Shown here: positions 6,336-64,000 of the stretch, piece after piece
Layout of the letters: each line of letters begins with the position of its first letter
How positions within the stretch are numbered: position 1 is the stretch's first letter
Source: Candidatus Shapirobacteria bacterium
GTDB lineage: Bacteria; Patescibacteriota; Microgenomatia; UBA12405
Assembly (NCBI GenBank): GCA_041649835.1
Contig: JBAZML010000001.1
Location: 38,722-102,721, forward strand
Direction: 5' to 3'
DNA length: 64,000 nucleotides
Program-made: the position numbers and the translations under genes
The notes under the pieces: generated by a model
What the model was told of the DNA's origin: nothing
What the model saw: the letters and a program-made list of their open reading frames with translations, nothing else
The model's database searches: none

Positions 6336-7034
6336 GTGCTAAATTTTTTTAGAGTAATTCCAAAAAGTCGCAAGGTTAGGATAAATAATTCAGCAGGATT
6401 AATTTTTTTTAATCCACCAAAATACCGAAAAATAATTTTTTATGTAGCCAATATGTTGTTTTTTGGGGCTATATTTTATGGTCTTTATTTATATAGTCCC
6501 TTATTATCGGCTATTTATAAGTATAAATATACAAAAACAGAGGAAATAATAATACCAATTATTACTAATACTGAAGAAAAAGTTATTGAAACTAACGAGT
6601 ATATTATTAATATTCCAAAAATTCTGGCAACAGCTCCGGTGATTGAAAATGTTTCCCCTTTTGATCAAGCCGAATATGATAGAGTTTTAAAAAATAATGT
6701 TGTTGCTCAGGCAAAAGGAACCAGTGTCCCGGGGAGTGGTAAAGGAAAATCAACATATATTTTTGCGCATTCGACTAATAACGCAATCGGAATGTTAAGA
6801 AATAACGCTGTGTTTTATTTATTGGGAGAACTTCAAAATGATGATTTTATTTATATAAATTATCACGGAAAAAATATTAAGTACCGGGTATTTGAAAAAA
6901 AAGTTGTCTCGCCGAAAGACTTGAATTATTTAAATTATCATGATGAGAATCGAGAAGTCTTAATACTTCAAACCTGTTGGCCGATAGGTACTGATTGGAA
7001 TCGATTGTTAATTTTGGCTGAATTAGTGATATGA
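6336..7034 (+). CDS. Sortase-family transpeptidase (paralog 1)
   Basis: Has an N-terminal TM segment, catalytic His in YIFAHS, Cys in LILQTCWP (a TLxTC-type motif) and a downstream Arg (NRLLIL). The annotated start is GTG. An in-frame ATG at 6453 is an alternative start. The TGA stop overlaps the rel start (ATGA). Confidence 0.75.
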   Translation: MLNFFRVIPKSRKVRINNSAGLIFFNPPKYRKIIFYVANMLFFGAIFYGLYLYSPLLSAIYKYKYTKTEEIIIPIITNTEEKVIETNEYIINIPKILATAPVIENVSPFDQAEYDRVLKNNVVAQAKGTSVPGSGKGKSTYIFAHSTNNAIGMLRNNAVFYLLGELQNDDFIYINYHGKNIKYRVFEKKVVSPKDLNYLNYHDENREVLILQTCWPIGTDWNRLLILAELVI

Positions 7035-40712: not shown

Positions 40713-41211
40713 TGTTTTTTAGCCAAATAGTCAGACATTCCTCCGAAAGACTGAGTCTATTAATAAAATTACTATCGTTAATACTTAAATTAACAATCGA
40801 CAAATAGTTTGAGAGAAAGAGTTGGTGTTCGGCAAAAAATTTATCAATATCGATAAAAGTTTTGAAATAATTCTTGGCTTTGTAAAGTTTAATTAAAAAC
40901 TCTTGACTCAGATCTAGACTAATAATGAATACTTTATAGCCGGATTTTAAAATTTCTTCCTGGTAACTTTTCCACTGGCGATCAATACTAGCGTCAAGTA
41001 TAAATGAATTTCCTGTTTTGAACAAAGCAGCTAAGCGATTTAAACTTCTTTTTCTAAATTCTTTTTCATCAAATTTTAATAAATCTTCGGTAACTTCGGT
41101 CCTAATTGAATCATTATTAAATACAGGTAAATTAAATTTTTCGCTCAAATAGTTTGCTAGTGGGGTTTTTGAAGAACCTGGAGGACCAGCAAAGGTAATG
41201 ATATATTTCAT
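40702..41211 (-). CDS. P-loop NTPase / small-molecule or nucleotide kinase-like protein
   Basis: Walker A FAGPPGSSKT. 169 aa. Confidence 0.5.
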   Translation of the reverse strand: MKYIITFAGPPGSSKTPLANYLSEKFNLPVFNNDSIRTEVTEDLLKFDEKEFRKRSLNRLAALFKTGNSFILDASIDRQWKSYQEEILKSGYKVFIISLDLSQEFLIKLYKAKNYFKTFIDIDKFFAEHQLFLSNYLSIVNLSINDSNFINRLSLSEECLTIWLKNNGS

Positions 41212-41741
41212 TATTTTTTCTTGTTTCGATTTGCAAATTTGGCACCAATCTTGGCATGATGAAAGCGTGATTCAAAAACTGATTGACGCTGATGTTCAAA
41301 ATCTTTGGGTGAGTGAAAATGTTTAAGTGCCGGATGGCCAGGATTAGCGTCAATTGTATCTTCTTTAGTAACCTTTCTACCTACTATTGGTTTACCATTT
41401 AACCCAGTTGCTTGGGCTCGTTGAGGGTGACGTTTTAGGGCTTCCAGATGCCGCTCCTGACCTTCAGGGGTTAAGAAGGGATCAGGTTCTGAGTAATCGA
41501 CAATAATGGCTAAATCACCAAGCTTGTAGCGATTCATTTTTTCTTTGGCAGCAACAGCCGATTCCAATTCATCAAATTCGATGAATCCCATCCCCCGACT
41601 TTTGCCCCAACGATTGTGCATTATTTTTAGAGAGATGACTTTACCAAAAGGAACAAAGAGTTCAAGTAACTCCCCTTCTGTAAAACGAAAGGGTAAAGAG
41701 CCTATGAATAGGCGTTTATTGGGCGAATGTTTTTGATCCAT
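41211..41741 (-). CDS. RRM-domain RNA-binding protein with a basic C-terminal extension
   Basis: RNP-2 LFIGSL and RNP-1 KSRGMGFIEF. Confidence 0.7.
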   Translation of the reverse strand: MDQKHSPNKRLFIGSLPFRFTEGELLELFVPFGKVISLKIMHNRWGKSRGMGFIEFDELESAVAAKEKMNRYKLGDLAIIVDYSEPDPFLTPEGQERHLEALKRHPQRAQATGLNGKPIVGRKVTKEDTIDANPGHPALKHFHSPKDFEHQRQSVFESRFHHAKIGAKFANRNKKK

Positions 41742-44307: not shown

Positions 44308-47300
44308 TTATTTTTTCTTTCTAATCGCACTGAAAAGATAAAACACAAAACCAATTCCGGAGATAACAATTGAAAATATGACAAAAAAGATACTGGAACT
44401 ACCACCAATTGAAAGACTTGATAAAGGGGAAAAACCATCACCAGAAGATTCAAGATTGGAACCCATCATCAAACTTGAAGATTTGTTTAATGAGGACGAG
44501 GGTGAGAGAATCATGTTGCCAAAAATGGGGGAACGTTGATTATTTTCAACTGGAGAACTATCCTGATAACGATCATAACTATTAATGTTGTCATTGAGTC
44601 TGTCGAATTGCTGTTCGTTAACTAAGGCAATTAATGATGAATAAGGACTAACAATATTAGACTTCTCAGAAATAGAATTGAGCTCATCCATAATGGTAAT
44701 GTCACCGACAATTTCCCGATTTTGATTTTGGGCAAATTTAATTTGAAGACCTTTGTTGGCAATATTAGCAAAGTTGGATGGGGGTGAAAAAACTGAATCG
44801 GGAAGAAAGCTTAGTAAATTGCTGTATTGTAAGCTCCAAAACTTATTTATAGTGACTGTCCCCTCTCCGTATTTTTCTTTAGATATTTTGGTTAACAAAA
44901 ATGATTGTATAGCCTCGGTAAATGACAGAGCTGATCCACCACCGCTTTGCCAAGTTCCGCTAGTCATTTCCAAATTTAAAGGTGGAATTTTAGTTTCACC
45001 TATCCAATAGACGGTCGTCGGTAAAGAAAAAGGAAAATTCGAAAGCTGATTAAAAGAAATATTTTGACCAGTAATAATTAGAACTAAATCATATTTTTCG
45101 GTTATATTTCCCAATTTTGAAAAATCAGCAACTTTTGAAAAATAAACTGGTTTTAATTGTTCTTGATAGTTATTTGAATTCAGACGAACAGAGTGACTGA
45201 GAAGGTTGTTGAGTTTATAAAAATCTACGATTGAATTGTCCAGCCAATCAGACCCACCATTATTTATGATTTGGTTTAATTCTGACAATATATTGTTGTC
45301 CTTATTGTTAAATGAAGTATCGTAAATAATTGCCGTTCGATAATTTTTTAAAAGCGGCAAAAAAGTATTAATCTTTTGACAGGCAATATTTTTCAACTGA
45401 TCATCGTTGGCGTGATAAATCAACTTCACCTGATTGCTTAAACCTTGGAAATTAGTTGAATCAGATTGGGGTTGACATAAATCTAATTGAATATTTCTGG
45501 CAATATCAATTTTTGTTTCGGTCTCTTTTAAGGGAGCTATCTTACCATTGTTTTCCAGAGTAAAGGTACTTGAAGCATCGCTAAAAACATTCAACTTTTT
45601 GGAATATAGAGGTAGAGCAAAAGTTCCATTATTTTGAGCAATTACATAGCTGAAAGAAACTTTTTGTCGTTTTCCTTTTAAAGTGGAATTGTCATTTTTG
45701 GCAGGTATTGGAAAAATTCTTAGCCGATATTGGTTGGGTCCAGTTTGTTCTAATAGAGCTGGATCCCGTCTCTGTAACAATTCTCTTTCGTATGTTTTTT
45801 GGGCAGCACCTTTGGGAGCGATTATGCCAGGAAATTCAAGATTTGGTCCTAATTTAAGGTTATAAATAGTAGCTTCCGAAGGTAAATTAAACTCATAAAC
45901 TACTTCCTTTTGACTATATGTTTTATTTTCAAATTCTTCTTCAATGGTAACTGAAGCTAATAAACCATTATCATCCGGATTTATTTTAATGTGTCTAAAA
46001 GTAAGGAGAACATCTTTGTTACCGTTGTCGTTAGATTTTAAATTTTCTTTTTGATAATAGGGATAACCAAAAACATAGGTGAAATTTTGGGACAAAGTAT
46101 CCTGACCAGTTGAACCTTCCCGATAAACTAGGGGGTAAGCAACTTGAATAAAGACACTTTGCATGACACTCCCCAAGATTTTGTTATCAAAAGCCTGTTG
46201 ATACATTTCCTCGATACTGTCATCGTCTTCAGAAAATGGATAATAACTTCGTGAATCTAGTTTTTGGGTGACAAGATTTTTTAATTTACTCTCCTGATTG
46301 GTAAGAGAGGTGGCGGCTTTTTCCTGAATTTGGTAGTCAACCTCCTTGGTGGGAAAGTTGGCCAATTCTGATAATAAATGATTGTCGGGCCATCTAAAGA
46401 TACTTAAAGCAATTAAAAATATAATTAGTGACCAACTTATAAGGCTGTATCTGTCGAAACCTCTATCACCCAGAGTTTCCAGCAATAAAATTCGATTTTT
46501 ACCTAAAGATCTCCAGAGGGAAATAGTAAGGAAATAAGGAATCGAAAGTAGAACTAACACCAATGTGATGAGTAAAAATCCCCAACCAAGTGAAAAGAAT
46601 ACACCAGAATAATCAGTATAGTTACCATACGATTGATATCCAAAAGGGCGTGAAACATTATCAAAAACAAATTTGACGATAGTAACGATAATCGGTAAAA
46701 CAAAAAAAGATAAAAGAAAAGTATAATAAGTTGAAAAAACAGCCGCCATTTGTCCAAAAAATATAATAATCTTCCGTGAAAGGACGTTTATATTAATATT
46801 GCTAATATTTAGATAAAGTAAAAACGGAATGGTTAACAAAACCATGAGAGTCAATGAAATAAAAAGACTGGTCTGTCCAATTAAGCTGAGTGAAATATAA
46901 GCGAATAAGGCTAGAGGAACTTCAAAAAGAAAAAATAACTGCATTAAAGCAGAGCTGCTCCGTTGAAGACCCCGACGAATGGCAAATAAGATAGAAACAA
47001 CTGGCAATAAAAAAAGACAAACAAAAAGTATGGTTCTGGCAATCCCTAAATCTTTTAGAGATGAAAAAAACTTTTGACCATGAAGATAGGAAATGGCAAC
47101 AGAGATGTTGAATAGAAAAAAATAGATGTTATAACCCCAAAAAAATATTTTTGGAAAGATGCCACCAAAACGAGATTTCCTGGGGAGAGTCGATACTGGT
47201 GGTGAATTGGTTAGTCTGTCTATAACAATTTGTCGGGCAATTTGATTGGCCTCCAAAGAAAATTCTTCAGGAGTAATATCGTCTTTTCCGGAAAATATTC

Positions 47301-47508
47301 TAATTAATCCAGTTGATTCGTCAATTAATACGGCAATTCCAATAGGAGAATTTGGGTATTTTTTTCGATATTCAGTAAATATCGTCTGTTGAATTTCGGC
47401 TATTAATTCGGAGTGGGACACTCCTTGAGCGATTGCTAAATCACTAAGTTTTGCAAATTCACTTTTAATCACTATTAATAATTTACTCAAATTGTTATAA
47501 AAATGCAA
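44308..47508 (-). CDS. Large multidomain membrane protein: NusA-N-terminal-like domain + about 8 TM helices + VIT-like extracytoplasmic domain + C-terminal TM/basic tail
   Basis: 1066-aa uninterrupted ORF. Residues ~30-100 align with the NusA NTD (TEYRKKY…IAVLIDESTGLIRIF…NQIARQIVIDRL versus E. coli ATATKKKY…DVRVQIDRKSGDFDTF…TAKQVIVQKV). Ends GGSSSIFFVIFSIVISGIGFVFYLFSAIRKKK. Confidence 0.7.
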   Translation of the reverse strand: MHFYNNLSKLLIVIKSEFAKLSDLAIAQGVSHSELIAEIQQTIFTEYRKKYPNSPIGIAVLIDESTGLIRIFSGKDDITPEEFSLEANQIARQIVIDRLTNSPPVSTLPRKSRFGGIFPKIFFWGYNIYFFLFNISVAISYLHGQKFFSSLKDLGIARTILFVCLFLLPVVSILFAIRRGLQRSSSALMQLFFLFEVPLALFAYISLSLIGQTSLFISLTLMVLLTIPFLLYLNISNININVLSRKIIIFFGQMAAVFSTYYTFLLSFFVLPIIVTIVKFVFDNVSRPFGYQSYGNYTDYSGVFFSLGWGFLLITLVLVLLSIPYFLTISLWRSLGKNRILLLETLGDRGFDRYSLISWSLIIFLIALSIFRWPDNHLLSELANFPTKEVDYQIQEKAATSLTNQESKLKNLVTQKLDSRSYYPFSEDDDSIEEMYQQAFDNKILGSVMQSVFIQVAYPLVYREGSTGQDTLSQNFTYVFGYPYYQKENLKSNDNGNKDVLLTFRHIKINPDDNGLLASVTIEEEFENKTYSQKEVVYEFNLPSEATIYNLKLGPNLEFPGIIAPKGAAQKTYERELLQRRDPALLEQTGPNQYRLRIFPIPAKNDNSTLKGKRQKVSFSYVIAQNNGTFALPLYSKKLNVFSDASSTFTLENNGKIAPLKETETKIDIARNIQLDLCQPQSDSTNFQGLSNQVKLIYHANDDQLKNIACQKINTFLPLLKNYRTAIIYDTSFNNKDNNILSELNQIINNGGSDWLDNSIVDFYKLNNLLSHSVRLNSNNYQEQLKPVYFSKVADFSKLGNITEKYDLVLIITGQNISFNQLSNFPFSLPTTVYWIGETKIPPLNLEMTSGTWQSGGGSALSFTEAIQSFLLTKISKEKYGEGTVTINKFWSLQYSNLLSFLPDSVFSPPSNFANIANKGLQIKFAQNQNREIVGDITIMDELNSISEKSNIVSPYSSLIALVNEQQFDRLNDNINSYDRYQDSSPVENNQRSPIFGNMILSPSSSLNKSSSLMMGSNLESSGDGFSPLSSLSIGGSSSIFFVIFSIVISGIGFVFYLFSAIRKKK

Positions 47509-47598: not shown

Positions 47599-48249
47599 AT
47601 GAAAAGGCCTCATTTTTCCATTAAGGAAGTAAAAAAAATCATTGGTAAGGAACAGCCAAAACTTGTTTTTATTGCCGGAAAGACTTGTGTTGGAAAATCT
47701 ACCTTTGCCCGAGATTTAAAAATATGGGAATATGAACATTTAGAATTAGATTTGGTGGTTAGAGAAAGTGTCATAAAAAGATTTGGGGTATTAAACCCTA
47801 ATGAGGCTTTTTTAGTATATAAGGGTATTGCACCAGAAAATTGGCAAAAATCATTTGAGAAAGCGACTCATAAATTAATTGAAGAACGTTTAAAATTTTC
47901 CAAGGTTGTGGTTGACGCCGCTTTGGCTGATGTAGGTGTTTTGAAAAGAGTTTTTTCTAAAAAGCTTGATAATTTTTTTTGTGTCTATATACACCCTTTT
48001 AGCCGTGATTTTTATTATAAAAATATTTTTAACAGATTTGTTAATGATGCAAAAAATAATACGAGATCCTTTCCAATTTGGGACTATGTTACACCAGAAG
48101 TTTTTGATGATTATCAAATTAACGGCAATCAGGGATTAATGATTAATCAAGTTGTGTACCAATACGCAGACGAAAGTACTAAGCTATCAAAAGAACGTTT
48201 TGAACTATTTGAAAAAGCATACCCCAAGATTATATTGACCGGAAATTAA
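47599..48249 (+). CDS. P-loop kinase-like protein (AAA_33 / zeta-toxin-like fold)
   Basis: Walker A IAGKTCVGKST. 216 aa. Confidence 0.5.
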   Translation: MKRPHFSIKEVKKIIGKEQPKLVFIAGKTCVGKSTFARDLKIWEYEHLELDLVVRESVIKRFGVLNPNEAFLVYKGIAPENWQKSFEKATHKLIEERLKFSKVVVDAALADVGVLKRVFSKKLDNFFCVYIHPFSRDFYYKNIFNRFVNDAKNNTRSFPIWDYVTPEVFDDYQINGNQGLMINQVVYQYADESTKLSKERFELFEKAYPKIILTGN

Positions 48250-48261
48250 CCTTGCTTAAGA

Positions 48262-49281
48262 CTACCCTGTAAGTCGGGACAGATACGGAATTTTTGAAAC
48301 CAAGAAAGCTAGTAAATATGATGGAATAATGACTAAAATAAATGGAATTAAAAAATAAACAAGAGTGGAGGTCGGTAATAGTTTCCAAATAATTTCAATA
48401 AAAACGATATGGACAAAAAAAACAAAAAATGAATAGGAGGCAATAGTTTTTATCAAATTTAGATTTGTTTTAACTTTATCAAATAAATAGAAGAATAAAC
48501 TCCCTATATACAGTGTATAAATGAATCCCATTGGCCGCCAATTTGAATAAAAAGTTAAATAGTTTTTGGTCAGGCGATATAATATCCAAGCTTCGGCAGT
48601 TATCAAAATTGAAATAATAACCGTGGTAATTGTCAGACTAATTAAATGTTTTTTGACATAATCACGAATCTCCTGTTGATAGTGACTAGCTATAACTCCC
48701 AGAATAAAGGTATCCAAATTTAAAATAAAAACACCTATGGGTTGAGGTAAATTTAAGGGCTTAAAATAATAATCGTTGGCAAGCAAAACAATCTGAATTA
48801 ATCCAAAAAATAAGATGCTTTGTTTTTTGACAAAAAAATAATAATAACGATGAACAAGCGGGAAAAACAAATATAAAAGAAACAGAGAAGGAATAAAATA
48901 TAACTGATAAGAAGCACCTCCCGAAACCAACGATTTAAGAAAGTTCCCATTATAATTTGGATAAACAAGATATTGATAGATTGCACTCCAGAATATATAG
49001 GGCAATAATATTTTTGAAAAACGTTTTTTGATATAGGAAATAAAGCTTAAATTTGGTGGAGAGCTTAGTTCTAAAACAAAGGCTGAAATAAAGAAAAATA
49101 AAGGAACGGTAAAACGAGTGGCTTGGTTTATGTACAGAGTAAAAAAATTATTTGAAAAATCATATTTGACGAGTTCTAAAGTTTTTGTAGAAATATGAAT
49201 TAAGACAACAGAGATAATAGAAACAATTCTCAAAAGATCGATAGCATAATTGTATTTATCTACTTTGTCTATCTCTGACAT
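48262..49281 (-). CDS. Acyltransferase family 3 (OatA-like) membrane protein
   Basis: About 10 TM helices, with a [15 protein letters not shown] start typical of acyltransferase_3. Confidence 0.6.
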
Positions 49282-56271: not shown

Positions 56272-57429
56272 CTATAATTTTATTTGTTTTTCACATTTCT
56301 TTTTCAATGAAAATATTAGAGGTAAAAGAAACGAAAAAATGTTACCAAGATAATAATAAGGAAATTTTTGACAGGTGGATTTTGATAAGTAATAGTCAAA
56401 GATTAGGGATAATATAGAAATTGATAAAGTAATGAAGTGATAGGGACAAATTATTATGTTGACCATGAGCGCTAAAAGAAAAGCAAAAGGAAAAATATTG
56501 ACACAACTGACACCCTCAACACTACCAGTAGTATCTGGAACAGTATCCTGTACACCCAAGATTTCAGAGTTAAAACCGATAGCAGGTTGTTGATTTACTA
56601 AAACTTGACCATTTGGGATAGCTGACACAATATCGGAAAATATACCAGAGGCACAGCCGTTGCCAGTGCGAATCTTAAAATAATAAATAGTGTCAGCGGA
56701 AAGATTATTAATTGTATATGAGTTAATCCCCTTGCCACCAATATTTGGATTACCATATTTTCCGGCATCCGGATTATTGCTATAAGCAATTAGATAATAT
56801 GTAAAATTATCAGTAGGTTCATCCCAAAAAAGCGTAACTGTATTTTGACCACTAATAGTTCGTAAATTTTGAGGAATCTGAAAAGGTGTAGCATCACGAC
56901 ACCGAATATCGATGTCACTTGAGGTGTTTTCATTGGAAGCTATAGTGGGGACAGGAGTGACGTTTTCAGTGTCACATGTAAAATTAAAACTAATATCAAA
57001 ATAGTTGTTTTGTAATTGAAATTCATTGCCTGCCGATTGTTTTAGGGATATTGTCCAGCGATAGTCTTTATATTGATTTCCATCTATATTACCCAATTGA
57101 TGGGTTTTTTCATCAAATATGTCGCTAATTTGTCCCGAATACCAAACATCGCTTCCATTGACTACACTCAATGTTAAAACTGTTGATAAATTATTGGAAT
57201 TTAAAATTGGGTTGAATTTAAATAGAAGATTACAACTATCTGTACGATGATTTATTACTTTTAGAGTTTGCGAATTGATGAATCCGGGGACAATATTTAA
57301 TTCGTTAAAAAATGGTAATTTATGTGACTTGGTGCAGGAATCAGTAGAACAAGTAATGGTTATATCATTGCCAGCAAAAACAGGAGAAGAAAAAATGATT
57401 AAAATAATAAGAAAAATTATTATTTTCAC
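56272..57429 (-). CDS. Secreted/surface protein with a fibronectin-III-like domain and a C-terminal multi-TM anchor
   Basis: Sec signal peptide MKIIIFLIILIIFSSPVFAG. FN3-like segment …TVTLFWDEPTDNFTYYLIAYS…TIYYFKIRT…. The start overlaps the upstream gene stop by 4 nt. Confidence 0.6.
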   Translation of the reverse strand: MKIIIFLIILIIFSSPVFAGNDITITCSTDSCTKSHKLPFFNELNIVPGFINSQTLKVINHRTDSCNLLFKFNPILNSNNLSTVLTLSVVNGSDVWYSGQISDIFDEKTHQLGNIDGNQYKDYRWTISLKQSAGNEFQLQNNYFDISFNFTCDTENVTPVPTIASNENTSSDIDIRCRDATPFQIPQNLRTISGQNTVTLFWDEPTDNFTYYLIAYSNNPDAGKYGNPNIGGKGINSYTINNLSADTIYYFKIRTGNGCASGIFSDIVSAIPNGQVLVNQQPAIGFNSEILGVQDTVPDTTGSVEGVSCVNIFPFAFLLALMVNIIICPYHFITLSISILSLIFDYYLSKSTCQKFPYYYLGNIFSFLLPLIFSLKKKCEKQIKL

Positions 57430-59687
57430 AAATTAAAAATAAATGTTTTTGGCGGAAGGTCACTAAAAGTTACCGTAAAACTACTTCCTAAACCTGAGCT
57501 CGATACACATGTTCCACCACTACTACAGGTGCCTAAATAGAAATCACGAGTTGAGACCCCATCGGTATCAATTGCGTTTGGCAAAATTTGACCATAAATT
57601 TGTTGAGGACCTGAAATATCAGAATAATCAATAGTGTACGACATATCTGAAAGTGTCGTTGACAGACCTGAAATACTGAGAGTAATTTTGGAAACTGAGA
57701 GGCGAGATTCCAAATTAAAAAATGGAGGAGAATTTGTCATTACCCAAGGACCCAAGCCATCAACAATTCTTTGCCATACCGATGTACCCAAATTACTAAC
57801 CGTGGTGGAATCAACTAAATTACCGTCAACAAATAATTTTATTTCACTGAGAACTGAAATGGGGGTTGATAAAATAATATTAAAAGACTGCATGGGCGAA
57901 AGAGTACCCGATAATGAGATAGGTAAGTCGCTATTAATAACATAGGAATATTTACTTAAATCAACCGTTTCACTCTGACTGTTATTAAATAGAGTAATTA
58001 TATTTTGAGAAATTTTATTTAAAACTAATGGTGGTAATACAACGATTGATTGATGATGTATATTTTCAGTATTCTGTGCAGAATCTGTCGATGAGAAACT
58101 AACAATATTTTCCCCTGGAACAAGAATTATTGGTGATGAAGTAGAGGCTATATCTGATCCCAAATCAGTAGCAATATTATCAAAGATACTTGTCTCTCCA
58201 ACCCTGGTATCTAAAGAAAAAATATTAATATTGTCAAGATAAACCCACGAATTATAATCATCACCACTACCGGTATCAGTTAAAGAAAACAATAATTTGA
58301 AAGTTTGACCGGCAAAACTGGTTAAACTGCGGCTAAGAGTTATCCAACCGGAATCATAGTTATAATCATCAGTATTTAAGTTACCAAAATTTAAAATATT
58401 TTCTAAAATATTAGTACCAGAAAGGTCAGTAATATCAACATTAAAATGGTCATAATCTGCTATGTCATGACTAAAAAAATGATAAGAAAATTTTAACGTT
58501 GAAGATGCAGATGCGGGCAGGGAAACCGTTTGATAAAAAGAATCTGTACCATTAATAGTTTTGGCTTCAGAGCCCAAGATATAGACATTGTTGTCAAGGT
58601 CACCGTTATTAATAATGTGATGATCTCCAATAGAAGATGAAACTTGCCAACCCACCATGCCATTTTCAAAATTACCGTTAATTAAGTAATCTTGACCAGT
58701 GCAAATATGATTTGGGAGAGATTGATTGTCGAGATTGGTAGTTGGCGGAATAGTGTCAACTTTTATTTGATTGTAATAATAATCAAAGTCTTTTGTTTCG
58801 ACATTACCAGAAGAATCGGTGGCCACTGATTCGAAACTATATAATCCATCACCTTCTGGGGAGGTAAAATGAAAATTACCCATGGGGCCATAGATTGTTT
58901 CTGAAAATAACTGCCAAGAATTATAGTTGAAAGAATAATATAGTTGAATATAAGCAACAGATTCATTGTCATCAGCAGTGGACATAATATTGAAGTTGTG
59001 AATGTTTTTGGTTGAAATATCCATCAAATCTATTGATGATTCCGGTGGAGTTAACTCTCCGATAGAAAAAGTTATGCCGGAAATTAAACTAGTTGAAGTA
59101 TAAAATGCTGAAATACTTTTAGTAACCTGAACAACAAAAATACTGATAAATAACAGTAGTTGAATAATTATTTTAGGAAATTTCTTTTTTAGATTATTTT
59201 TTATCTTAAATATTTCTGAAATTATTAATAACCCTGCAGGCAAACAGATACCAAAAATAAAACCAAGTGGACGACGGAGAAGTGCAACGATATATCCAAT
59301 GTACGGTATGGAAAATTGATATCGTCCTATTACCCCAACGTCAACAACATCCCACTGATCGATTGTATTGTTATTATCTCCTTTGGTTGAAAACCGTATC
59401 GGATTTGTCGATTTTATTAAATTTATACGATGAAGAATGGTATCTTTTGAATTATTTGGCGAGGCAAAAGCAATAATGTCACCGGTTTTTAAGATATTTG
59501 GATTAATTGGTTTTACAAAAACAAGTGAACCTGATTTGATAAGTGGTTCCATTGAACCACTTACAACAACGAATGATTTGGGAATATTTTGAAAGAATGA
59601 TGGAGAAATAACAAAAAAGACAAATATTGACATGGTAAAAATAATTATCTTTTTTAAAATGTTTGAACTGTTTTTTATATTAAGCAC
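57426..59687 (-). CDS. SipW-type (archaeal/ER-type S26B) signal peptidase fused to a protein with a SipW-cognate signal and a CBM-like domain
   Basis: Residues 1-160: TM, SGSMEP (catalytic Ser box), ILHRINLI (His box), TKGDNN box, TM. Residues ~165-200: KKKFPKIIIQLLLFISIFVVQVTKSISAFYTSTSLISGITFSIGEL resembles TasA/CalY signals. Later, LINGNFENGMVGWQ has a CBM_4_9-like start. Confidence 0.75.
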   Translation of the reverse strand: MLNIKNSSNILKKIIIFTMSIFVFFVISPSFFQNIPKSFVVVSGSMEPLIKSGSLVFVKPINPNILKTGDIIAFASPNNSKDTILHRINLIKSTNPIRFSTKGDNNNTIDQWDVVDVGVIGRYQFSIPYIGYIVALLRRPLGFIFGICLPAGLLIISEIFKIKNNLKKKFPKIIIQLLLFISIFVVQVTKSISAFYTSTSLISGITFSIGELTPPESSIDLMDISTKNIHNFNIMSTADDNESVAYIQLYYSFNYNSWQLFSETIYGPMGNFHFTSPEGDGLYSFESVATDSSGNVETKDFDYYYNQIKVDTIPPTTNLDNQSLPNHICTGQDYLINGNFENGMVGWQVSSSIGDHHIINNGDLDNNVYILGSEAKTINGTDSFYQTVSLPASASSTLKFSYHFFSHDIADYDHFNVDITDLSGTNILENILNFGNLNTDDYNYDSGWITLSRSLTSFAGQTFKLLFSLTDTGSGDDYNSWVYLDNINIFSLDTRVGETSIFDNIATDLGSDIASTSSPIILVPGENIVSFSSTDSAQNTENIHHQSIVVLPPLVLNKISQNIITLFNNSQSETVDLSKYSYVINSDLPISLSGTLSPMQSFNIILSTPISVLSEIKLFVDGNLVDSTTVSNLGTSVWQRIVDGLGPWVMTNSPPFFNLESRLSVSKITLSISGLSTTLSDMSYTIDYSDISGPQQIYGQILPNAIDTDGVSTRDFYLGTCSSGGTCVSSSGLGSSFTVTFSDLPPKTFIFNL

Positions 59688-59733
59688 CTAATAGATCACA
59701 GAATATTTTCCGTGATCTATAGACGTGTAATAT

Positions 59734-60288
59734 TTACTGTTGGGTGCCAAGAAATTGAAAGGAAAGACCTGACAGAGTTTGACCAGTGTCATTGTTGTCA
59801 ATCCCATTTAAGGAAACTTTCATTTGATATTTTTGAGAATTACCATAACTTATGGAGTCAATTTCAAAACCGGTTGTTTGCCATTGAGATATAGGACCTG
59901 ATGCCAAATCAATCCACGTAGTACCGTTATATTTTTGGAAGCTGACAATAATTTTATTACCGATTACACTCCAGGAGGAAGAATTTGATGCGGGAGAATT
60001 ATCTATTAATTTTGTAAAAATATTTAAACCAATATTTGAAAGACTCGTGTTTTTTAAATAAAACTCTTGGGAACCCAAGAAACCCGGAGCCATATTAGTG
60101 TAATTAGAAACCGGTTCGAAAGTAGTATCCCAGGTATTACCATCAATACTAATTTTGAGATCGGCACTACCAGTACTAAAAGTTAAACCACTGACTGTGG
60201 CAGTAGAACTGAATAGGGCATAGGCGGATGAAGAGACCAGTCCGAGAATAAAAACTATGAGTAAAATACTTGAGACTATTTTTTTCAT
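59734..60288 (-). CDS. TasA/camelysin-like protein with a SipW-cognate-class signal peptide
   Basis: MKKIVSSILLIVFILGLVSSSAYALFSSTATVSGLTFSTGSADL. Compare B. cereus CalY GGGTFAYFSDKEVSNNTFAAGTLDL. No LPXTG. 184 aa. Confidence 0.6.
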   Translation of the reverse strand: MKKIVSSILLIVFILGLVSSSAYALFSSTATVSGLTFSTGSADLKISIDGNTWDTTFEPVSNYTNMAPGFLGSQEFYLKNTSLSNIGLNIFTKLIDNSPASNSSSWSVIGNKIIVSFQKYNGTTWIDLASGPISQWQTTGFEIDSISYGNSQKYQMKVSLNGIDNNDTGQTLSGLSFQFLGTQQ

Positions 60289-60371
60289 TAATATTTACCT
60301 TTAAATTGTCAAAAATATAACATTTGACTAGTAAATATTAATACAATGTAAGAAAGTGTACAACTAGATAA

Positions 60372-60977
60372 TCAGATTGATTTTGCTATGATTATCAAAC
60401 GGCTGAGCGTAGTACCCGGAGGCCAACAAGTCATCAAAGTTAGTGTATTAGTGTTTTGTTTATTAGATAAGTAGTTGATATCGGTGTTTTTGACAATCTT
60501 TTTTTCAGCGACTTTATATTTGTACTCACTTTTTTCATAGTTAATTGTAATTTCGTCATCCAAATCAAGCTTGTCTGTCAAATAAAAAATGGCATTAAAT
60601 TGATTGGCCTGATACCAGGAATTGGCTGAGTGAGCAAAGATAAAGATATTACCCGGGAAACCGGGGAGTCCAGAACCTTTGGCATGAGCCACCCCTTTTG
60701 TTAATGCTTTCTGATATTCAGAGGAGTTATAGGGATCAACATTTTTAACCACATTGGCATTGACACCAATTTTAGGAATTTGAATTGAAAAATCTGTGTT
60801 TATCGGTACTATTTGGTCTTTTGATGGTAGTATCTTCTGAGCTTGATAACCAAGTTCCGCCTGTGCTACAGGAAAAAAAGTTTTGACCAAAATAAATGCT
60901 GAAGCGATTACTAGTATGTATCCCAGTGGGCCAAGTATCTTATTTACGACGGGTACTTTTCTTTTTCTCCGAGACAT
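60372..60977 (-). CDS. Sortase-family transpeptidase (paralog 2)
   Basis: N-terminal TM, His in IFIFAHS, Cys in TLTLMTCWPP, Arg in LSRLIII. The start overlaps the 3' end of the adhesin gene by 38 nt. Confidence 0.8.
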   Translation of the reverse strand: MSRRKRKVPVVNKILGPLGYILVIASAFILVKTFFPVAQAELGYQAQKILPSKDQIVPINTDFSIQIPKIGVNANVVKNVDPYNSSEYQKALTKGVAHAKGSGLPGFPGNIFIFAHSANSWYQANQFNAIFYLTDKLDLDDEITINYEKSEYKYKVAEKKIVKNTDINYLSNKQNTNTLTLMTCWPPGTTLSRLIIIAKSI

Positions 60978-63900
60978 ATCTAATTATAAGGACAATTATC
61001 ACTAATGCGAGAATTAGATAAAGCCAGTATTTTTGAATAAAGTTTTTAGCTGCTCCTTGAACACCCAGAACACTTCCTTCGCCGGTAGTCTCTGCTGCAC
61101 CCAAGGTACCTGTGTCATTTGTATTTTCTTGACCAGGAGCTAATGCAACATTAGTAACAGGAATAGCACCAGTGTCTGTATTGATTGTAGTTCCTATAGT
61201 GGTTGTTGTCGTGATTGAGGTGACGACGCTGTCACCAACCGGACTGGAACCATTACCGGCATTATCAAAGGCGCGGATGACATAGTAATAATTTTTGTTA
61301 CAGTCAGGAACCGAGTTGGTAACATCGCGTTCTTCATTGGAACCAACAGAGACTGTGGAGACAACTGAGCCGGCATCTAAAATGAAGTTGGTTATATCAG
61401 CCCGATAGACTTCGACCTTGACTGTTTTTCCGCCATCATCAGCAGTTTTAAAGTGAATTTTGTAGTCACAGTTATTCGGGTGATCTTTACGATAATCATT
61501 TGGTGTACCGGGACCGGAGACTTTATACTCCATAGAAACGGTATTACTATCAACTCCATTGGCCATAACTTTAAATTCATAGCTTCCCTCGGTGCTTAAT
61601 ACTGAGGATAAAGAGCAGTGGTTGGCATTGTAACCGGCGTTTGGAGAAGAAATATCAGCACCAAATTGAGTAAAAGTAGCATCGGTAGAATATTTTTTAA
61701 AACATTTTACGATGACAAAGTTTTGGTCAATGTCCAGAGCGACAAAGTTTAGGTTAACGTCATTGGTATTGATTGGTGACTTTGGTATCTCAAGACGAAC
61801 TGATAAATTACCGACAGCAGTCGCATTATTTGGGAATAAGAAGAAGGCGGCAAATAATAGAATAGACAAAACCTTTTTAGATTTTTTAATTAGAGTAAAG
61901 CCTAGTAATGACATAAGGGTACTAATAATTAACCATGAGGTTGAAGAACCGGTTGAAGGAAGCTCCGTAGAAGCACCCAGGACTTCACCAGTTCTGATTT
62001 CCTGTCGTTCAACTCCGGCTCCAATGGAATTTTGAGTTGATTTAACAACCGGAACAATAGTACCAACAAAAGTTGTATTGACATATTGGGAATCTTCACC
62101 TTGGGCATAAACTGTACTAGATTGATATTTAGCATTGCCCATGGCTACGGCTAAATCAGTGTATTCGCCAGGTTGTTGATCTGTACTGATATCGGCAATA
62201 TAACTTAGTTCGACAACATCACCGGCTTTCAAATCACCTAAATTCCAAACTCCAGGAGAATGATATTGAGGTTCGATAATACTACCAGTAACATCGGTAC
62301 CACCAATAGATACGTGGTAAGAACCTAAACGATATTTAAATCCATTTGATAAGAGATCGGTAACCTTGAATCCGGTTACATCATTACCTAAAATTTTGAC
62401 TTTTATTTTGTATCCAACTGAGGAACCGGGAGACAGGTCGCCGACTGCATCGTTGGTTTTTGAGATGGTAGCAGTGGGAGTAACAAGACGGTTTCCAATG
62501 AAACATTGTATATTATCGCCAGCCTTGACGGTAACGAGTTTATGATTATATGAATCACTATCGGCCTGGGCACTGACAGATTTAACGAATTTAAAAGCAG
62601 CTTCACAAGCATCACCAGTTCCGTCACCATTTGAGTCCGTTTGACTTGCATTAGCAACGGAAGGACAATTATCTTCGCTGTCACATATTTCATCCCTGTC
62701 AATATCAGAACAATTACCTTGGGTTGGAGTAGCAGTAGGTTGTTGACAGTGACCATTTCCTGATGGGTTGTTACCGGTAACACAGACCAATCCACTACAA
62801 CAACTTTTTTCGGAATTGTTTATCTGACACTCAGCGTTTTCGTGTTTACACTGAGGAGCTTGTGTTGGACCAGTTGTTGGTGTCTGAGTTACTGTTGGAG
62901 TAGGTCTGGAATCACTAGAACACGTGATTCCAGTTTGAGTCCAACCATCTTGCATGACCTCACTTAAGGTATAAGTGCTTGGAGTAAGTTGATCAAAAAT
63001 AGCCCCTTTATTACCGGTGATTTTTGTATCGCCGGATAAATTGACAATCCAGCCAGGTAAAACTTTGTCGATATCTTCATTATATTTACCATCGTTATCA
63101 ATATCGTTAAATTTAGTGACATTTATTTGACCTAATTGTTGATTACCAAAATTATATTCATGACCAGAAACATAATTTGTACTATTTGGAAATTGACCAG
63201 AATTACCGTCAGGTAGACTGATTAAATGACAATTATCGTCTTTATCAGTAGTTGGATATATTGGTCTCCAACCATCTTGTAAAACTTCACAAACTTTATA
63301 TTGACCTGGAAGAAGATTTTCAAACCAGTACCAACCGAAGTGTGACGTACCGATGTCAGTATTCATCGTTTTTATTGGAGTAGGTTCATAGCCACCAGCA
63401 TTGTTTGATTTATATAGATTTATCGTCCAACCAGGTAATAATTCTTCGTTGAAGCTGGAAACTGGACCACCACTACCATCAGCATCACTCCACTTGTAAC
63501 CATGAATGGAACCTTCGGGTTGGTTTCCGAAATACATTTGATTGTTGGATTCATTATCAACATGCATTGTATAGCTTTGACAATTACCGGTAGTTAAAGT
63601 CCAACCATCTTGTTTGACTTCTTTTATCCAATAGGTTTGGCCTAAATATAGGTTCTCAAAACTAGCAGTACCTGGTTTGCCTAAATCACCGTTTGTTATT
63701 GCAGTCATGCTTGGAGATCCAGTACAAGTGTTATTTTCATAGAGTTCAAATGTCCAACCGTCTAAAAATCTTTCACTCTCTTCTATTGTTTGATTACCGT
63801 TCAAATCTTCGAATTTACTGACATAGAGGGGAGAGGCAATTTTAGTATTAGTAAAGACACAAGTAATCGTCTCACCCGAATCAAGCTCTAAATTACCGTA

Positions 63901-64000
63901 AGTTTCAGTATCTCCAATTGAACTAGTGCAAGTTTTGTCAGTCAATACCCATCCCGGAGGTACTATTTCGTTAAAGCTGTAAGTTCCAGCAATTAACCAA
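60940..64000 (-). CDS. Large cell-surface adhesin-like protein. The N-terminus lies beyond the window. It has Cna-B/SdrD-B-like repeats, a TSP3 repeat, an internal LPSTG sorting signal, then a second signal-like segment, an FN3-like module and a C-terminal TM anchor.
   Basis: The reading frame stays open from the window edge (64000) down to the stop at 60940. The ORF-track start at 63945 is a TTG. Repeated …DxDGxGxxxxxExxLxGWTFxLY… units. LPSTG-SSTSWLIISTLMSLLGFTLI-KKSKK is encoded at about 61860..61962. Confidence 0.8.
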   Translation of the reverse strand, partial: WLIAGTYSFNEIVPPGWVLTDKTCTSSIGDTETYGNLELDSGETITCVFTNTKIASPLYVSKFEDLNGNQTIEESERFLDGWTFELYENNTCTGSPSMTAITNGDLGKPGTASFENLYLGQTYWIKEVKQDGWTLTTGNCQSYTMHVDNESNNQMYFGNQPEGSIHGYKWSDADGSGGPVSSFNEELLPGWTINLYKSNNAGGYEPTPIKTMNTDIGTSHFGWYWFENLLPGQYKVCEVLQDGWRPIYPTTDKDDNCHLISLPDGNSGQFPNSTNYVSGHEYNFGNQQLGQINVTKFNDIDNDGKYNEDIDKVLPGWIVNLSGDTKITGNKGAIFDQLTPSTYTLSEVMQDGWTQTGITCSSDSRPTPTVTQTPTTGPTQAPQCKHENAECQINNSEKSCCSGLVCVTGNNPSGNGHCQQPTATPTQGNCSDIDRDEICDSEDNCPSVANASQTDSNGDGTGDACEAAFKFVKSVSAQADSDSYNHKLVTVKAGDNIQCFIGNRLVTPTATISKTNDAVGDLSPGSSVGYKIKVKILGNDVTGFKVTDLLSNGFKYRLGSYHVSIGGTDVTGSIIEPQYHSPGVWNLGDLKAGDVVELSYIADISTDQQPGEYTDLAVAMGNAKYQSSTVYAQGEDSQYVNTTFVGTIVPVVKSTQNSIGAGVERQEIRTGEVLGASTELPSTGSSTSWLIISTLMSLLGFTLIKKSKKVLSILLFAAFFLFPNNATAVGNLSVRLEIPKSPINTNDVNLNFVALDIDQNFVIVKCFKKYSTDATFTQFGADISSPNAGYNANHCSLSSVLSTEGSYEFKVMANGVDSNTVSMEYKVSGPGTPNDYRKDHPNNCDYKIHFKTADDGGKTVKVEVYRADITNFILDAGSVVSTVSVGSNEERDVTNSVPDCNKNYYYVIRAFDNAGNGSSPVGDSVVTSITTTTTIGTTINTDTGAIPVTNVALAPGQENTNDTGTLGAAETTGEGSVLGVQGAAKNFIQKYWLYLILALVIIVLIIRYVSEKKKSTRRK

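What the first reader, a model, noticed from the sequence alone, without database searches (positions are those of the whole stretch)
44308..47508. NusA-N-terminal-like domain fused to a polytopic membrane protein with a large VIT-like domain
The cytoplasmic N-terminus (no signal peptide) matches the NusA RNAP-binding NTD at several conserved blocks. Examples are KKKY/RKKY, IDRKSGDFDTF versus IDESTGLIRIF, and QVIVQK versus QIVIDR. The S1/KH domains of NusA are absent. In their place are about 8 TM helices, then ~700 aa containing a VIT-like stretch (…VYEFNLPSEATIYNLKLGPNLEFPGIIAPKGAAQKTYERELLQ…), and a C-terminal TM plus RKKK tail. If the NTD really binds RNA polymerase, this protein could tether transcription complexes to the membrane. 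It could also be a domain recruited for another role. I do not recognise either architecture as described.
Basis: partly seen in the sequence, partly recalled or inferred. Interest (0 to 1): 0.65.

Follow-up and report, generated by a model that had tools for sequence, protein, structure and literature searches.

The report
Membrane protein carrying a NusA docking domain
A conserved family of large surface-exposed membrane proteins in ultra-small CPR bacteria carries, on its cytoplasmic end, a true copy of the domain that NusA uses to dock onto RNA polymerase, which suggests but does not prove a direct physical link between the cell envelope and transcription.

Summary
Window 44308-47472 (minus strand) is one intact gene of 1054 aa in a Candidatus Shapirobacteria (CPR) genome. 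The true start is probably a GTG 12 codons inside the listed ORF.

Residues 1-88 are a genuine homolog of the NusA N-terminal domain:
- Pfam NusA_N scores 27.1 bits on the isolated domain (cut-off 23.8).
- The family profile hits NusA structures at E=2e-7 and CPR NusA proteins at E=7e-11 in 1.8 billion sequences.

After the NTD come seven TM helices, an ITIH-like VIT/vWA-like ectodomain, a Gly/Ser stalk, and a C-terminal TM with a basic tail. The body matches TIGR02921 ("PEP-CTERM integral membrane protein", function unknown), which lacks the NTD. No PEP-CTERM or LPXTG motif is present.

About 70 representative clusters share the fusion, all in Microgenomates-type CPR. The NTD is the second most conserved part of the protein. 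It keeps the flap-binding edge motif and the K111 equivalent. It has lost R104 and the RNA/pause patch.

RNA polymerase docking is therefore plausible (about 0.45) but untested. The architecture appears undescribed in the literature searched.

The parts
44308..47472 (-). Complete CDS (1054 aa plus stop) from the probable GTG start. The mechanical ORF extends 12 codons further, to a TTG at 47508.
   Evidence: ORF and sequence. (identical NCBI protein of 1054 aa). (all homologs start at MKSEF).
47209..47472 (-). Residues 1-88: short-form NusA N-terminal-domain homolog (alpha1, alpha2, beta hairpin, beta3, alpha3), predicted cytoplasmic.
   Evidence: sequence, profile and fold matches to NusA NTD. 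(residue mapping).
47170..47208 (-). Residues 89-101: disordered, variable-length, K/R-containing linker between the NTD and TM1.
   Evidence: pLDDT below 50. (mean length 21.6 aa, pairwise identity 0.09, 3.2 K+R).
46399..47169 (-). Residues 102-358: bundle of seven TM helices. Family-invariant residues include F111/W112/Y114/N115, P157, E184/P186, Y249 and P312.
   Evidence: hydropathy and AF2 helices. (alternating positive-inside pattern). (conserved residues). (aligned to TIGR02921 from its first TM).
46069..46398 (-). Residues 359-468: extracytoplasmic helical juxtamembrane region.
   Evidence: helices 365-468. (pairwise identity 0.31).
45637..46011 (-). Residues 488-612: VIT beta-sandwich domain, the most conserved part of the protein.
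   Evidence: Pfam VIT, E=6e-15. (beta strands). (pairwise identity 0.57). (ITIH1 match).
44824..45456 (-). Residues 673-883: alpha/beta vWA-like domain with a partial MIDAS motif (D718-x-S720, third Ser not conserved). The conserved cysteine pair C666/C698 sits at its N-terminal border.
   Evidence: alpha/beta pattern. (about 620 columns aligned to inter-alpha-inhibitor heavy chain 1, E=8e-9). (conservation). No Pfam vWA hit.
44590..44823 (-). Residues 884-961: conserved helical segment containing the invariant motif SPYSSLIALVNEQQ.
44422..44589 (-). Residues 962-1017: disordered Ser/Gly-rich stalk.
   Evidence: pLDDT below 50. (G/S-rich in all family members).
44311..44421 (-). Residues 1018-1054: C-terminal TM helix and basic tail (RKKK). 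No LPXTG or PEP motif precedes it.
   Evidence: PEP-CTERM model not matched.

Best explanation
SHOWN. The gene encodes a conserved CPR (Microgenomates-type) envelope protein. Its parts, in order, are:
- a cytoplasmic, short-form paralog of the NusA N-terminal domain;
- a flexible linker of about 13-35 aa;
- a 7-TM bundle with invariant intramembrane polar residues;
- an extracytoplasmic ITIH-like VIT/vWA-like module;
- a Gly/Ser stalk;
- a second membrane anchor.

The NTD was added to a pre-existing TIGR02921-type membrane-VIT body. It most resembles the headless NusA NTDs of CPR bacteria.

INFERRED. [quoted passage not shown] The protein would therefore hold RNA polymerase at the membrane, or occupy the flap tip in competition with NusA and sigma region 4. 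The extracellular adhesion-type ectodomain and the TM bundle may modulate this. That would make it a one-protein link between the cell surface and the transcription machinery.
For: Homology and fold:
- Pfam NusA_N on the isolated domain scores 27.1 bits, above the 23.8 cut-off, and all 9 members match.
- The NTD profile hits NusA structures at E=2e-7, spanning the whole NTD of M. tuberculosis NusA.
- The profile hits true NusA proteins at E=7e-11 in 1.84 billion sequences.

Fixed fusion:
- About 70 representatives carry the NTD at residue 1.
- All 14 loci that include the 5' end have it.

Selection: the NTD's mean pairwise identity is 0.37. That is second only to VIT at 0.57 and above the vWA-like region at 0.24.

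Topology: K+R counts alternate for a 7-TM model with the NTD inside. A conserved Cys pair lies in the ectodomain.

Functional residues:
- The literature says the NTD is NusA's RNAP anchor, acting through the flap-tip helix.
- Flap binding depends on beta2/beta3 residues, not on the H3 basic patch.
- The family keeps the beta3-edge motif K-D-[IV]-T-P-x-x-F that it shares with short NusAs (D 63, T 61, P 63, F 64 of 69).
- It keeps the K111 equivalent (R/K in 62 of 69) and the pocket-lining hydrophobic positions.

Paralogy: canonical NusA coexists at lineage level, for example in Woesebacteria, so the NTD is an extra copy and not a relocated NusA.
Against: Several residues invariant in NusA are not conserved in the family: R104, E15, G103, I105, Q116 and R119. 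The equivalents of E. coli R61, E94 and Q96 cannot be mapped one-to-one, because the 'head' insertion is absent.

The head binds alpha-CTD and was needed for NTD-only pause enhancement in E. coli. It is missing here, although it is also missing in CPR NusA itself.

The family has its own conserved surface positions that NusA lacks (D11, H20, S21, P40, E52). These could mark a different partner.

No conserved neighbouring gene hints at a transcription link. Whether this particular genome has a canonical nusA is unknown.
Confidence: 0.45

Rival explanations
1. Exapted scaffold. The NusA-NTD fold was recruited as a cytoplasmic protein-interaction or oligomerisation module for a partner unrelated to RNA polymerase. 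The partner could be a signalling, secretion or cell-division component, or another copy of the same protein. The protein would then be an envelope adhesin or receptor with no direct role in transcription.
For: The NusA signature of the last helix is largely eroded, with R104, Q116, R119, E15 and G103 not conserved. Family-specific conserved positions absent from NusA appear: D11 in 63 of 69 (D or E), S21 in 51, P40 in 59, E52 in 40. The alpha-CTD-binding head is absent. There is no transcription-related synteny.
Confidence: 0.33
2. Intramolecular regulatory or plug domain. The NTD acts on the protein's own 7-TM bundle, which has an invariant intramembrane Glu and Tyr and may be an enzyme or transporter. 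The NTD would gate or stabilise the bundle from the cytoplasmic side and would bind no external partner.
For: The TM bundle has strictly invariant polar and proline residues (E184, P186, Y249 and P157, each 69 of 69), which suggests an activity beyond anchoring. The NTD sits on a short flexible linker next to TM1.
Against: NTD-less relatives (TIGR02921 and P0273) keep the same body, so the bundle works without the NTD. The linker is disordered and variable in length, with pairwise identity of only 0.09. That fits a tethered, freely reaching domain better than a docked plug. The full-length AF2 model gave no confident packing of the NTD on the bundle, but at pLDDT 64 this is weak evidence.
Confidence: 0.15
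3. Artefact. The ORF is a mis-assembled or mis-called fusion of a truncated nusA with a downstream membrane-protein gene.
For: None beyond prior plausibility. One unrelated database protein (P0131, a CoA-transferase fragment plus NusA_N) does look like such a gene-call fusion.
Against: The reading frame is continuous. The same architecture occurs in about 70 clusters at 50% identity from independent NCBI, JGI, ENA and Logan assemblies, and in 15 loci. The NTD differs from genuine NusA at family-specific positions.
Confidence: 0.01

Closest known systems
NusA N-terminal domain (Pfam PF08529; structures 1K0R, 2MT4, 1HH2, 2KWP)
   Different: It is not followed by S1/KH RNA-binding domains and is fused instead to a membrane protein. 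Invariant NusA residues R104, E15, G103, I105, Q116 and R119 are lost, as is about half of the K36/K37 basic character. It has its own conserved positions (D11, H20, S21, P40, E52). Its function is untested.
TIGR02921 'PEP_integral' family (putative PEP-CTERM system integral membrane protein; the three-member polytopic exception noted by Haft et al. 2006, PMC1569441)
   Same: The body plan is collinear from the first TM to near the C-terminus (profile positions 5-12 to about 885 of 922): a polytopic N-terminal TM bundle, then a VIT-containing ectodomain, then a C-terminal TM. Scores are 154-195 bits.
   Different: All scores are below the curated cut-off of 200. The PEP-CTERM signal is not matched. 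The hosts are monoderm-type CPR with sortases rather than exosortase-bearing Gram-negatives. The CPR family also carries the extra N-terminal NusA-like domain, which the TIGR02921 profile does not cover.
Inter-alpha-trypsin inhibitor heavy chains (ITIH1, PDB 6FPY) and bacterial VIT-vWA sorted surface proteins (TIGR03788, TIGR04286, TIGR04477)
   Same: The ectodomain has a VIT beta-sandwich followed by an alpha/beta vWA-like domain and a helical region (Foldseek E=8e-9 over about 620 columns). It also gives weak VIT-region hits to the NCBIfam sorted VIT proteins.
   Different: There is no Pfam vWA hit. The MIDAS motif is incomplete (D-x-S, with the third Ser not conserved). The protein is anchored at both ends in the membrane rather than secreted or sorted, and it has a cytoplasmic NusA-like domain.
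Membrane-anchored regulators that hold a transcription component at the membrane (anti-sigma factors such as RseA/RsgI; ToxR/CadC-type membrane-bound activators)
   Same: The logic matches: an extracytoplasmic sensor or binding domain, a membrane span, and a cytoplasmic domain that could bind a part of the transcription apparatus. This comparison rests on general knowledge and is an analogy only.
   Different: No sequence or fold relationship exists. The presumed target would be the core RNAP flap tip, not a sigma factor or DNA. No cognate partner gene is adjacent, and no regulated-proteolysis sites were identified.

Membership tests
NusA_N domain (PF08529) | Sequence match to the Pfam model at or above the gathering score | tested here: met
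   The isolated domain scores 27.1 bits against the 23.8 cut-off, and all 9 close homologs match. Scored within the whole protein it reaches only 21.5 bits. Some family members pass as whole proteins, for example P0030 at 31.1 bits.
NusA_N domain (PF08529) | NusA-NTD three-dimensional fold | tested here: met
NusA_N domain (PF08529) | Binding to the RNAP beta-flap tip helix | not testable with these tools
   Only residue conservation could be examined. The beta3-edge motif and the K111 equivalent are retained, and R104 is lost.
NusA (transcription termination/antitermination factor) | S1 and two KH RNA-binding domains after the NTD | tested here: not met
   No S1 or KH hits appear in Pfam or NCBIfam. 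TM helices follow the NTD directly. The protein is therefore not a NusA ortholog.
NusA (transcription termination/antitermination factor) | [quoted passage not shown] 2015) | tested here: not met
   The R104 position is P, E, S, Q or L across the family. The K111 position is R or K in 62 of 69.
TIGR02921 PEP_integral | Score at or above the curated cut-off (200 bits) | tested here: not met
   156.6 bits for the target and 154-195 bits for other members. The alignment is collinear over profile positions 12-884 of 922.
TIGR02921 PEP_integral | C-terminal PEP-CTERM sorting signal and an exosortase in the genome | tested here: not met
   The profile alignment stops before the PEP-CTERM region, and no PEP-CTERM model is matched. 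No PEP motif occurs in the 69 C-termini. The window encodes sortases, not exosortases. The rest of the genome was not available.
VIT domain (PF08487) | Match above the gathering score | tested here: met
   55.8 bits against the 26.5 cut-off, E=6e-15. The domain is precomputed in all homologs.
vWA domain with MIDAS | Sequence match to a vWA model and a complete DxSxS...T...D metal site | tested here: inconclusive
   No Pfam vWA hit appears at E up to 10. The model shows an alpha/beta fold and aligns to ITIH1. D718 (65 of 69) and S720 (64 of 69) are conserved, but the third Ser is not.
Sortase (LPXTG) substrates | LPXTG-like motif before the C-terminal TM and basic tail | tested here: not met
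   Only 3 of 69 family C-termini contain a chance LPxxG-like string, and the target has none. Sortases are nonetheless present in the window.

The most novel reading that the evidence does not exclude
A cell-envelope protein that binds core RNA polymerase directly. The NusA-derived NTD would dock on the beta-flap tip at the RNA exit channel. Transcription elongation complexes would then be held at the membrane, or withheld from NusA and sigma, under control of an extracellular adhesion-type ectodomain. This would be a one-polypeptide surface-to-RNAP link in ultra-small, regulator-poor CPR episymbionts. In such cells even a few copies could engage a sizeable fraction of the polymerases.
Probability: 0.35. 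Interest if true: 0.85.

Novelty: new variant of a known kind. Interest (0 to 1): 0.66.

Why it matters
The NusA NTD is known only as the RNAP-docking module of a soluble elongation factor. Finding a well-conserved paralog of it permanently attached to a polytopic envelope protein suggests a new way for bacteria to connect the membrane or cell surface with the transcription machinery. Possible roles include membrane tethering of RNAP (transertion), competition with NusA or sigma for the flap tip, and transmembrane signalling without a DNA-binding regulator.

This would matter particularly for CPR/Patescibacteria. They are tiny, host-attached cells with few classical regulators, and how they sense their surface is essentially unknown. 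The hypothesis can be tested directly in vitro with a 90-residue soluble domain.

The finding has value even if RNAP binding is disproved. It gives the first functional handle on the uncharacterised TIGR02921-type membrane-VIT proteins, and it is a clear case of exaptation of a core transcription-factor domain.

Tried and rejected
1. Fusion or assembly artefact. Rejected, because the architecture recurs in about 70 representative clusters and 15 loci.
2. PEP-CTERM/exosortase cargo. The PEP-CTERM part of TIGR02921 is not matched and no PEP motif is present.
3. Sortase substrate. There is no LPXTG-like motif, although two sortases lie in the window.
4. Conserved operon partner. All-against-all comparison of flanks in 15 loci found nothing in more than 4 loci: a small cupin in 4 and a two-component pair in 3.
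5. Canonical nusA in the window. Absent. Same-genome co-occurrence could not be tested, and only lineage-level evidence was obtained.
6. IF2 as an alternative NTD partner. Rejected, because IF2 binds NusA's C-terminal region.
7. Promoter and terminator scan. Hits were at chance level and uninformative.
8. Literature search for the architecture, TIGR02921, or membrane-anchored NusA. Nothing was found. Haft 2006 only mentions the polytopic exception.
9. AFDB50 fold search. The library was unavailable.
It was redone with exact sequences.
11. The full-length AF2 model reached only pLDDT 64. It was used for domain boundaries and helix counting, not for inter-domain contacts.
Full report
WHAT IS THERE

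The window is an ordinary stretch of a low-GC (31-39%) CPR chromosome. The protein identical to the target is deposited as 'MAG: VIT domain-containing protein [Candidatus Shapirobacteria bacterium]' on a 118-kb contig.

The finding's coordinates hold one uninterrupted minus-strand ORF, 44308..47508, of 1066 codons from a TTG. NCBI's model is 1054 aa, and every homolog begins 'MKSEF...'. The start is therefore almost certainly the GTG at 47472. All residue numbers below use the 1054-aa numbering.

THE N-TERMINAL DOMAIN IS A REAL NusA-NTD HOMOLOG

Sequence evidence:
- Scored within the whole protein, Pfam NusA_N is just sub-threshold: 21.5 bits against a cut-off of 23.8, E=3e-4.
- Single-sequence PDB hits to four NusA chains are weak, with E of 0.13-0.34.
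- On the isolated 92-aa domain, NusA_N scores 27.1 bits (E=5e-6), and all nine close homologs match it.
- A profile of the nine NTDs hits B. subtilis NusA-NTD (2mt4, E=2.4e-7) and M. tuberculosis NusA (1k0r, E=3.4e-7). The latter match covers profile positions 3-88 against chain residues 22-116, which is the whole NTD with only about 10 extra residues in NusA.
- The same profile was searched against 1.84 billion representative proteins. Besides the family itself, it retrieved proteins of 350-460 aa at E down to 7e-11. Pfam shows these to be canonical NusA, with NusA_N, S1, KH_5 and KH.
- In the reverse direction, those NusA proteins hit only the target ORF in the window, with E down to 1.2e-8.

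Structural evidence:
- An AF2 model of the domain is confident (pLDDT 89.7), with helices 5-15, 20-38 and 69-88 and strands 46-50 and 57-61.
- Foldseek ranks NusA entries first (9a74_B at TMq 0.75, 2mt4 at 0.69).

Its numbering reproduces the residue list given by Ma et al..

THE REST OF THE PROTEIN

Topology:
- Hydropathy and the full-length AF2 model (pLDDT 64, used for boundaries only) show a disordered linker at residues 89-101.
- TM helices follow at 102-130, about 138-166, 173-197, 203-224, 230-274, 288-317 (with an extension) and 336-358.
- Across 69 family representatives, K+R counts in the connecting segments alternate: 3.2, 0.9, 2.1, 0.2, 0.7, 0.6 and 3.2, with 3.4 in the tail. This fits seven TM helices with the NTD inside, the large domain outside, and the C-terminal TM returning the basic tail to the cytoplasm.
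- Two cysteines in the ectodomain are conserved in 68 of 69. This fits an extracytoplasmic location.

Ectodomain and C-terminus:
- The ectodomain comprises a helical region (365-468), a VIT beta-sandwich (Pfam E=6e-15), an alpha/beta domain (673-883) and conserved helices.
- As a whole it aligns to inter-alpha-inhibitor heavy chain 1 (6fpy, E=8e-9, about 620 columns).
- No Pfam vWA model is matched. The MIDAS motif is incomplete, with D718 and S720 conserved but the third Ser not.
- A Gly/Ser-rich disordered stalk precedes the last TM. No LPXTG or PEP motif is conserved there.
- The TM bundle contains strictly invariant E184, P186, Y249 and P157. It is probably more than an anchor.

RELATION TO KNOWN FAMILIES

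NCBIfam TIGR02921 ('PEP_integral') aligns collinearly from the first TM to near the C-terminus, with profile positions 12-884 of 922 matching residues 122-991 of the 1066-aa ORF. It scores 156.6 bits, below the cut-off of 200. Other members score 154-195 bits, and the profile again starts at TM1.

[quoted passage not shown] (2006) noted as an exception among PEP-CTERM proteins, and no function is known for it. The NusA-like NTD is thus an addition to a pre-existing body plan.

An NTD-less distant relative (P0273, 973 aa) was found. It gives no NTD hit even with HMMER filters off. Its gene has 20 in-frame TGA codons read as Trp, so its host recodes TGA.

DISTRIBUTION AND CONTEXT

- About 70 of the 145 profile hits are proteins of 970-1340 aa with the NTD at residue 1. 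Many of the shorter hits come from short contigs and are probably fragments.
- Species-representative genomes with the gene are labelled Woesebacteria, Amesbacteria, Microgenomates group and 'Paceibacterota'. Three automatically labelled 'uncultured Gammaproteobacteria/Pseudomonadales' TPA assemblies, with GC of 36-46%, also carry it. I regard those labels as doubtful.
- All 14 loci that include the 5' end encode the NTD.
- Some members carry an extra Laminin_G_3/TafC-like domain.
- Flanking genes are not conserved.
- In the window, the neighbours are housekeeping genes: Dus, an RRM protein, an MTAP-like phosphorylase, APRT, acyltransferase-3 and pyruvate kinase.
- No terminator separates the gene from apt.

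WHAT THE NTD MIGHT DO

The literature establishes these points:
- The NTD is NusA's primary RNAP anchor.
- The flap-tip helix inserts into a hydrophobic pocket formed by alpha1, alpha2 and the last helix.
- ELISA and pause assays implicate F59, R61, E94 and Q96 on beta2/beta3 in flap binding.
- The basic patch (K36, K37, R104, K111 and others) and H3 are dispensable for binding but essential for pause enhancement.
- The 'head' (alpha3, beta3, beta4) contacts alpha-CTD.

An alignment of 69 family NTDs with ten NusA NTDs and E. coli NusA shows the following:
- The nearest NusAs are themselves headless short forms with the same layout. Named examples are WWE3, 'Patescibacteria group' and Woesebacteria.
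- The family retains G17, D50, G54, F102 (64 of 69), A106 (61), A110 (64), the K111 equivalent (R/K in 62 of 69) and the hydrophobic positions of all three helices.
- The beta3-edge motif K-D-[IV]-T-P-x-x-F is shared with short NusAs. It is even more conserved in the family (D 63, T 61, P 63 of 69).
- The invariant NusA residues R104, E15, G103, I105, Q116 and R119 are lost. K36 and K37 are basic in fewer than half of the members.
- New family-specific positions appear: D11, H20, S21, P40 and E52.

The NTD's mean pairwise identity of 0.37 is second only to the VIT domain, so it is under strong constraint.

INTERPRETATION

The pattern is to keep the fold, the pocket and the beta-edge, and to lose the RNA and pause residues and the RNA-binding domains. 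That is what one would expect of a module that still docks on the flap tip but no longer acts on the nascent RNA.

On that basis I favour RNAP docking, at about 0.45. It would produce one of two outcomes:
- membrane tethering of elongation complexes; or
- occupation of the flap tip in competition with NusA and sigma region 4. The flap tip is also the sigma-4 site, as noted.

The ITIH-like ectodomain may control either outcome.

From general knowledge, not tested here, CPR cells are extremely small and poor in regulators. A modest number of such proteins could therefore matter.

The main rival, at about 0.33, is exaptation of the fold for a different cytoplasmic partner. The eroded NusA signature and the new conserved positions favour it. 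An intramolecular regulatory role is less likely, at about 0.15, because NTD-less relatives exist and the linker is disordered and variable. An artefact is excluded.

NOVELTY

No paper in the searchable library describes a NusA-NTD fused to a membrane protein, or any function for TIGR02921-type proteins. Database annotations call these proteins only 'VIT domain-containing' or 'putative PEP-CTERM system integral membrane protein', and the precomputed Pfam lists show VIT only.

I class the finding as a new variant of known kinds: a new domain architecture whose parts are known. It has a substantial chance of reflecting a new mechanism.

LIMITS

- No binding test or complex prediction could be run.
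- Same-genome presence of canonical nusA could not be checked. The window lacks it, and only lineage-level coexistence is shown.
- The full-length model is of moderate quality.
- The taxonomic labels of three loci are uncertain.

Noticed in passing
window 56272-63945 (minus strand), plus 6336-7034 (+): A cell-surface gene cluster. It holds a 1001-aa SpaA/SdrD_B-like protein with a C-terminal TM and basic tail, an adjacent sortase (60372-60977), a camelysin/TasA-like protein (59734-60288), a 753-aa protein with no Pfam hit, and an fn3 protein. A second sortase lies at 6336-7034. This looks like a Gram-positive-style pilus or adhesin locus in a CPR genome.
   Followed up: partly
L017:6001-8922 (protein P0273): An NTD-less distant relative of the family (973 aa). 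Its gene contains 20 in-frame TGA codons translated as Trp by the source, so its host uses a recoded TGA. The neighbourhood includes a 1010-aa DSBA/thioredoxin-like protein.
   Followed up: partly
L008 and L015 (same Amesbacteria MAG, MFD00709.bin.1.50); L011: One genome carries two copies of the family gene. The L015 copy is broken into at least four ORFs and the L011 gene into two. These are frameshifts, pseudogenes or assembly errors.
   Followed up: no
L005, L013, L016: Three loci with the full NTD-containing gene come from TPA assemblies titled 'uncultured Pseudomonadales/Gammaproteobacteria' (GC 36-46%, contigs up to 954 kb). The labels are probably wrong and the genomes are likely CPR. 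If they are right, the family reaches outside CPR.
   Followed up: no
proteins P0019 (1338 aa) and P0030 (1315 aa): Longer family variants have an inserted Laminin_G_3 / TafC-fimbrial-like domain at about residues 905-1130, between the vWA-like region and the C-terminal anchor.
   Followed up: partly
proteins P0088 (7924 aa), P0093, P0113, P0114, P0116, P0132: The NTD profile matches 3-7 repeated short stretches (profile positions about 20-62) in very large or repetitive proteins, at E from 6e-10 to 2e-4. P0093 has only a weak DUF6667 hit. These are probably repeat or compositional matches, but they remain unexplained.
   Followed up: no
target residues E184, P186, Y249, P157, F111-N115 (window about 46720-47145): Polar and proline residues inside the TM bundle are strictly invariant (69 of 69 for E184, P186, Y249 and P157). 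This suggests the 7-TM part has an activity of its own, such as an enzyme, transporter or signal relay, rather than serving only as an anchor.
   Followed up: no
window 41211-41741 and 48262-49281; L001:8059-9477; L002:5-367: An RRM_1 RNA-binding protein and an Acyl_transf_3 membrane acyltransferase lie within a few kb of the family gene, both here and in the P0008 locus. They are absent from the other loci. This may simply be lineage-level synteny.
   Followed up: partly
window 47599-48249 (+): The divergently transcribed 216-aa neighbour has a Walker-A-like motif (GKTCVGKST) but no Pfam hit at E up to 1e-3.
   Followed up: no
protein P0131 (307 aa): A CoA-transferase III fragment followed by a NusA_N domain. 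Most likely a gene-call or contig-edge fusion, not a second novel architecture.
   Followed up: no
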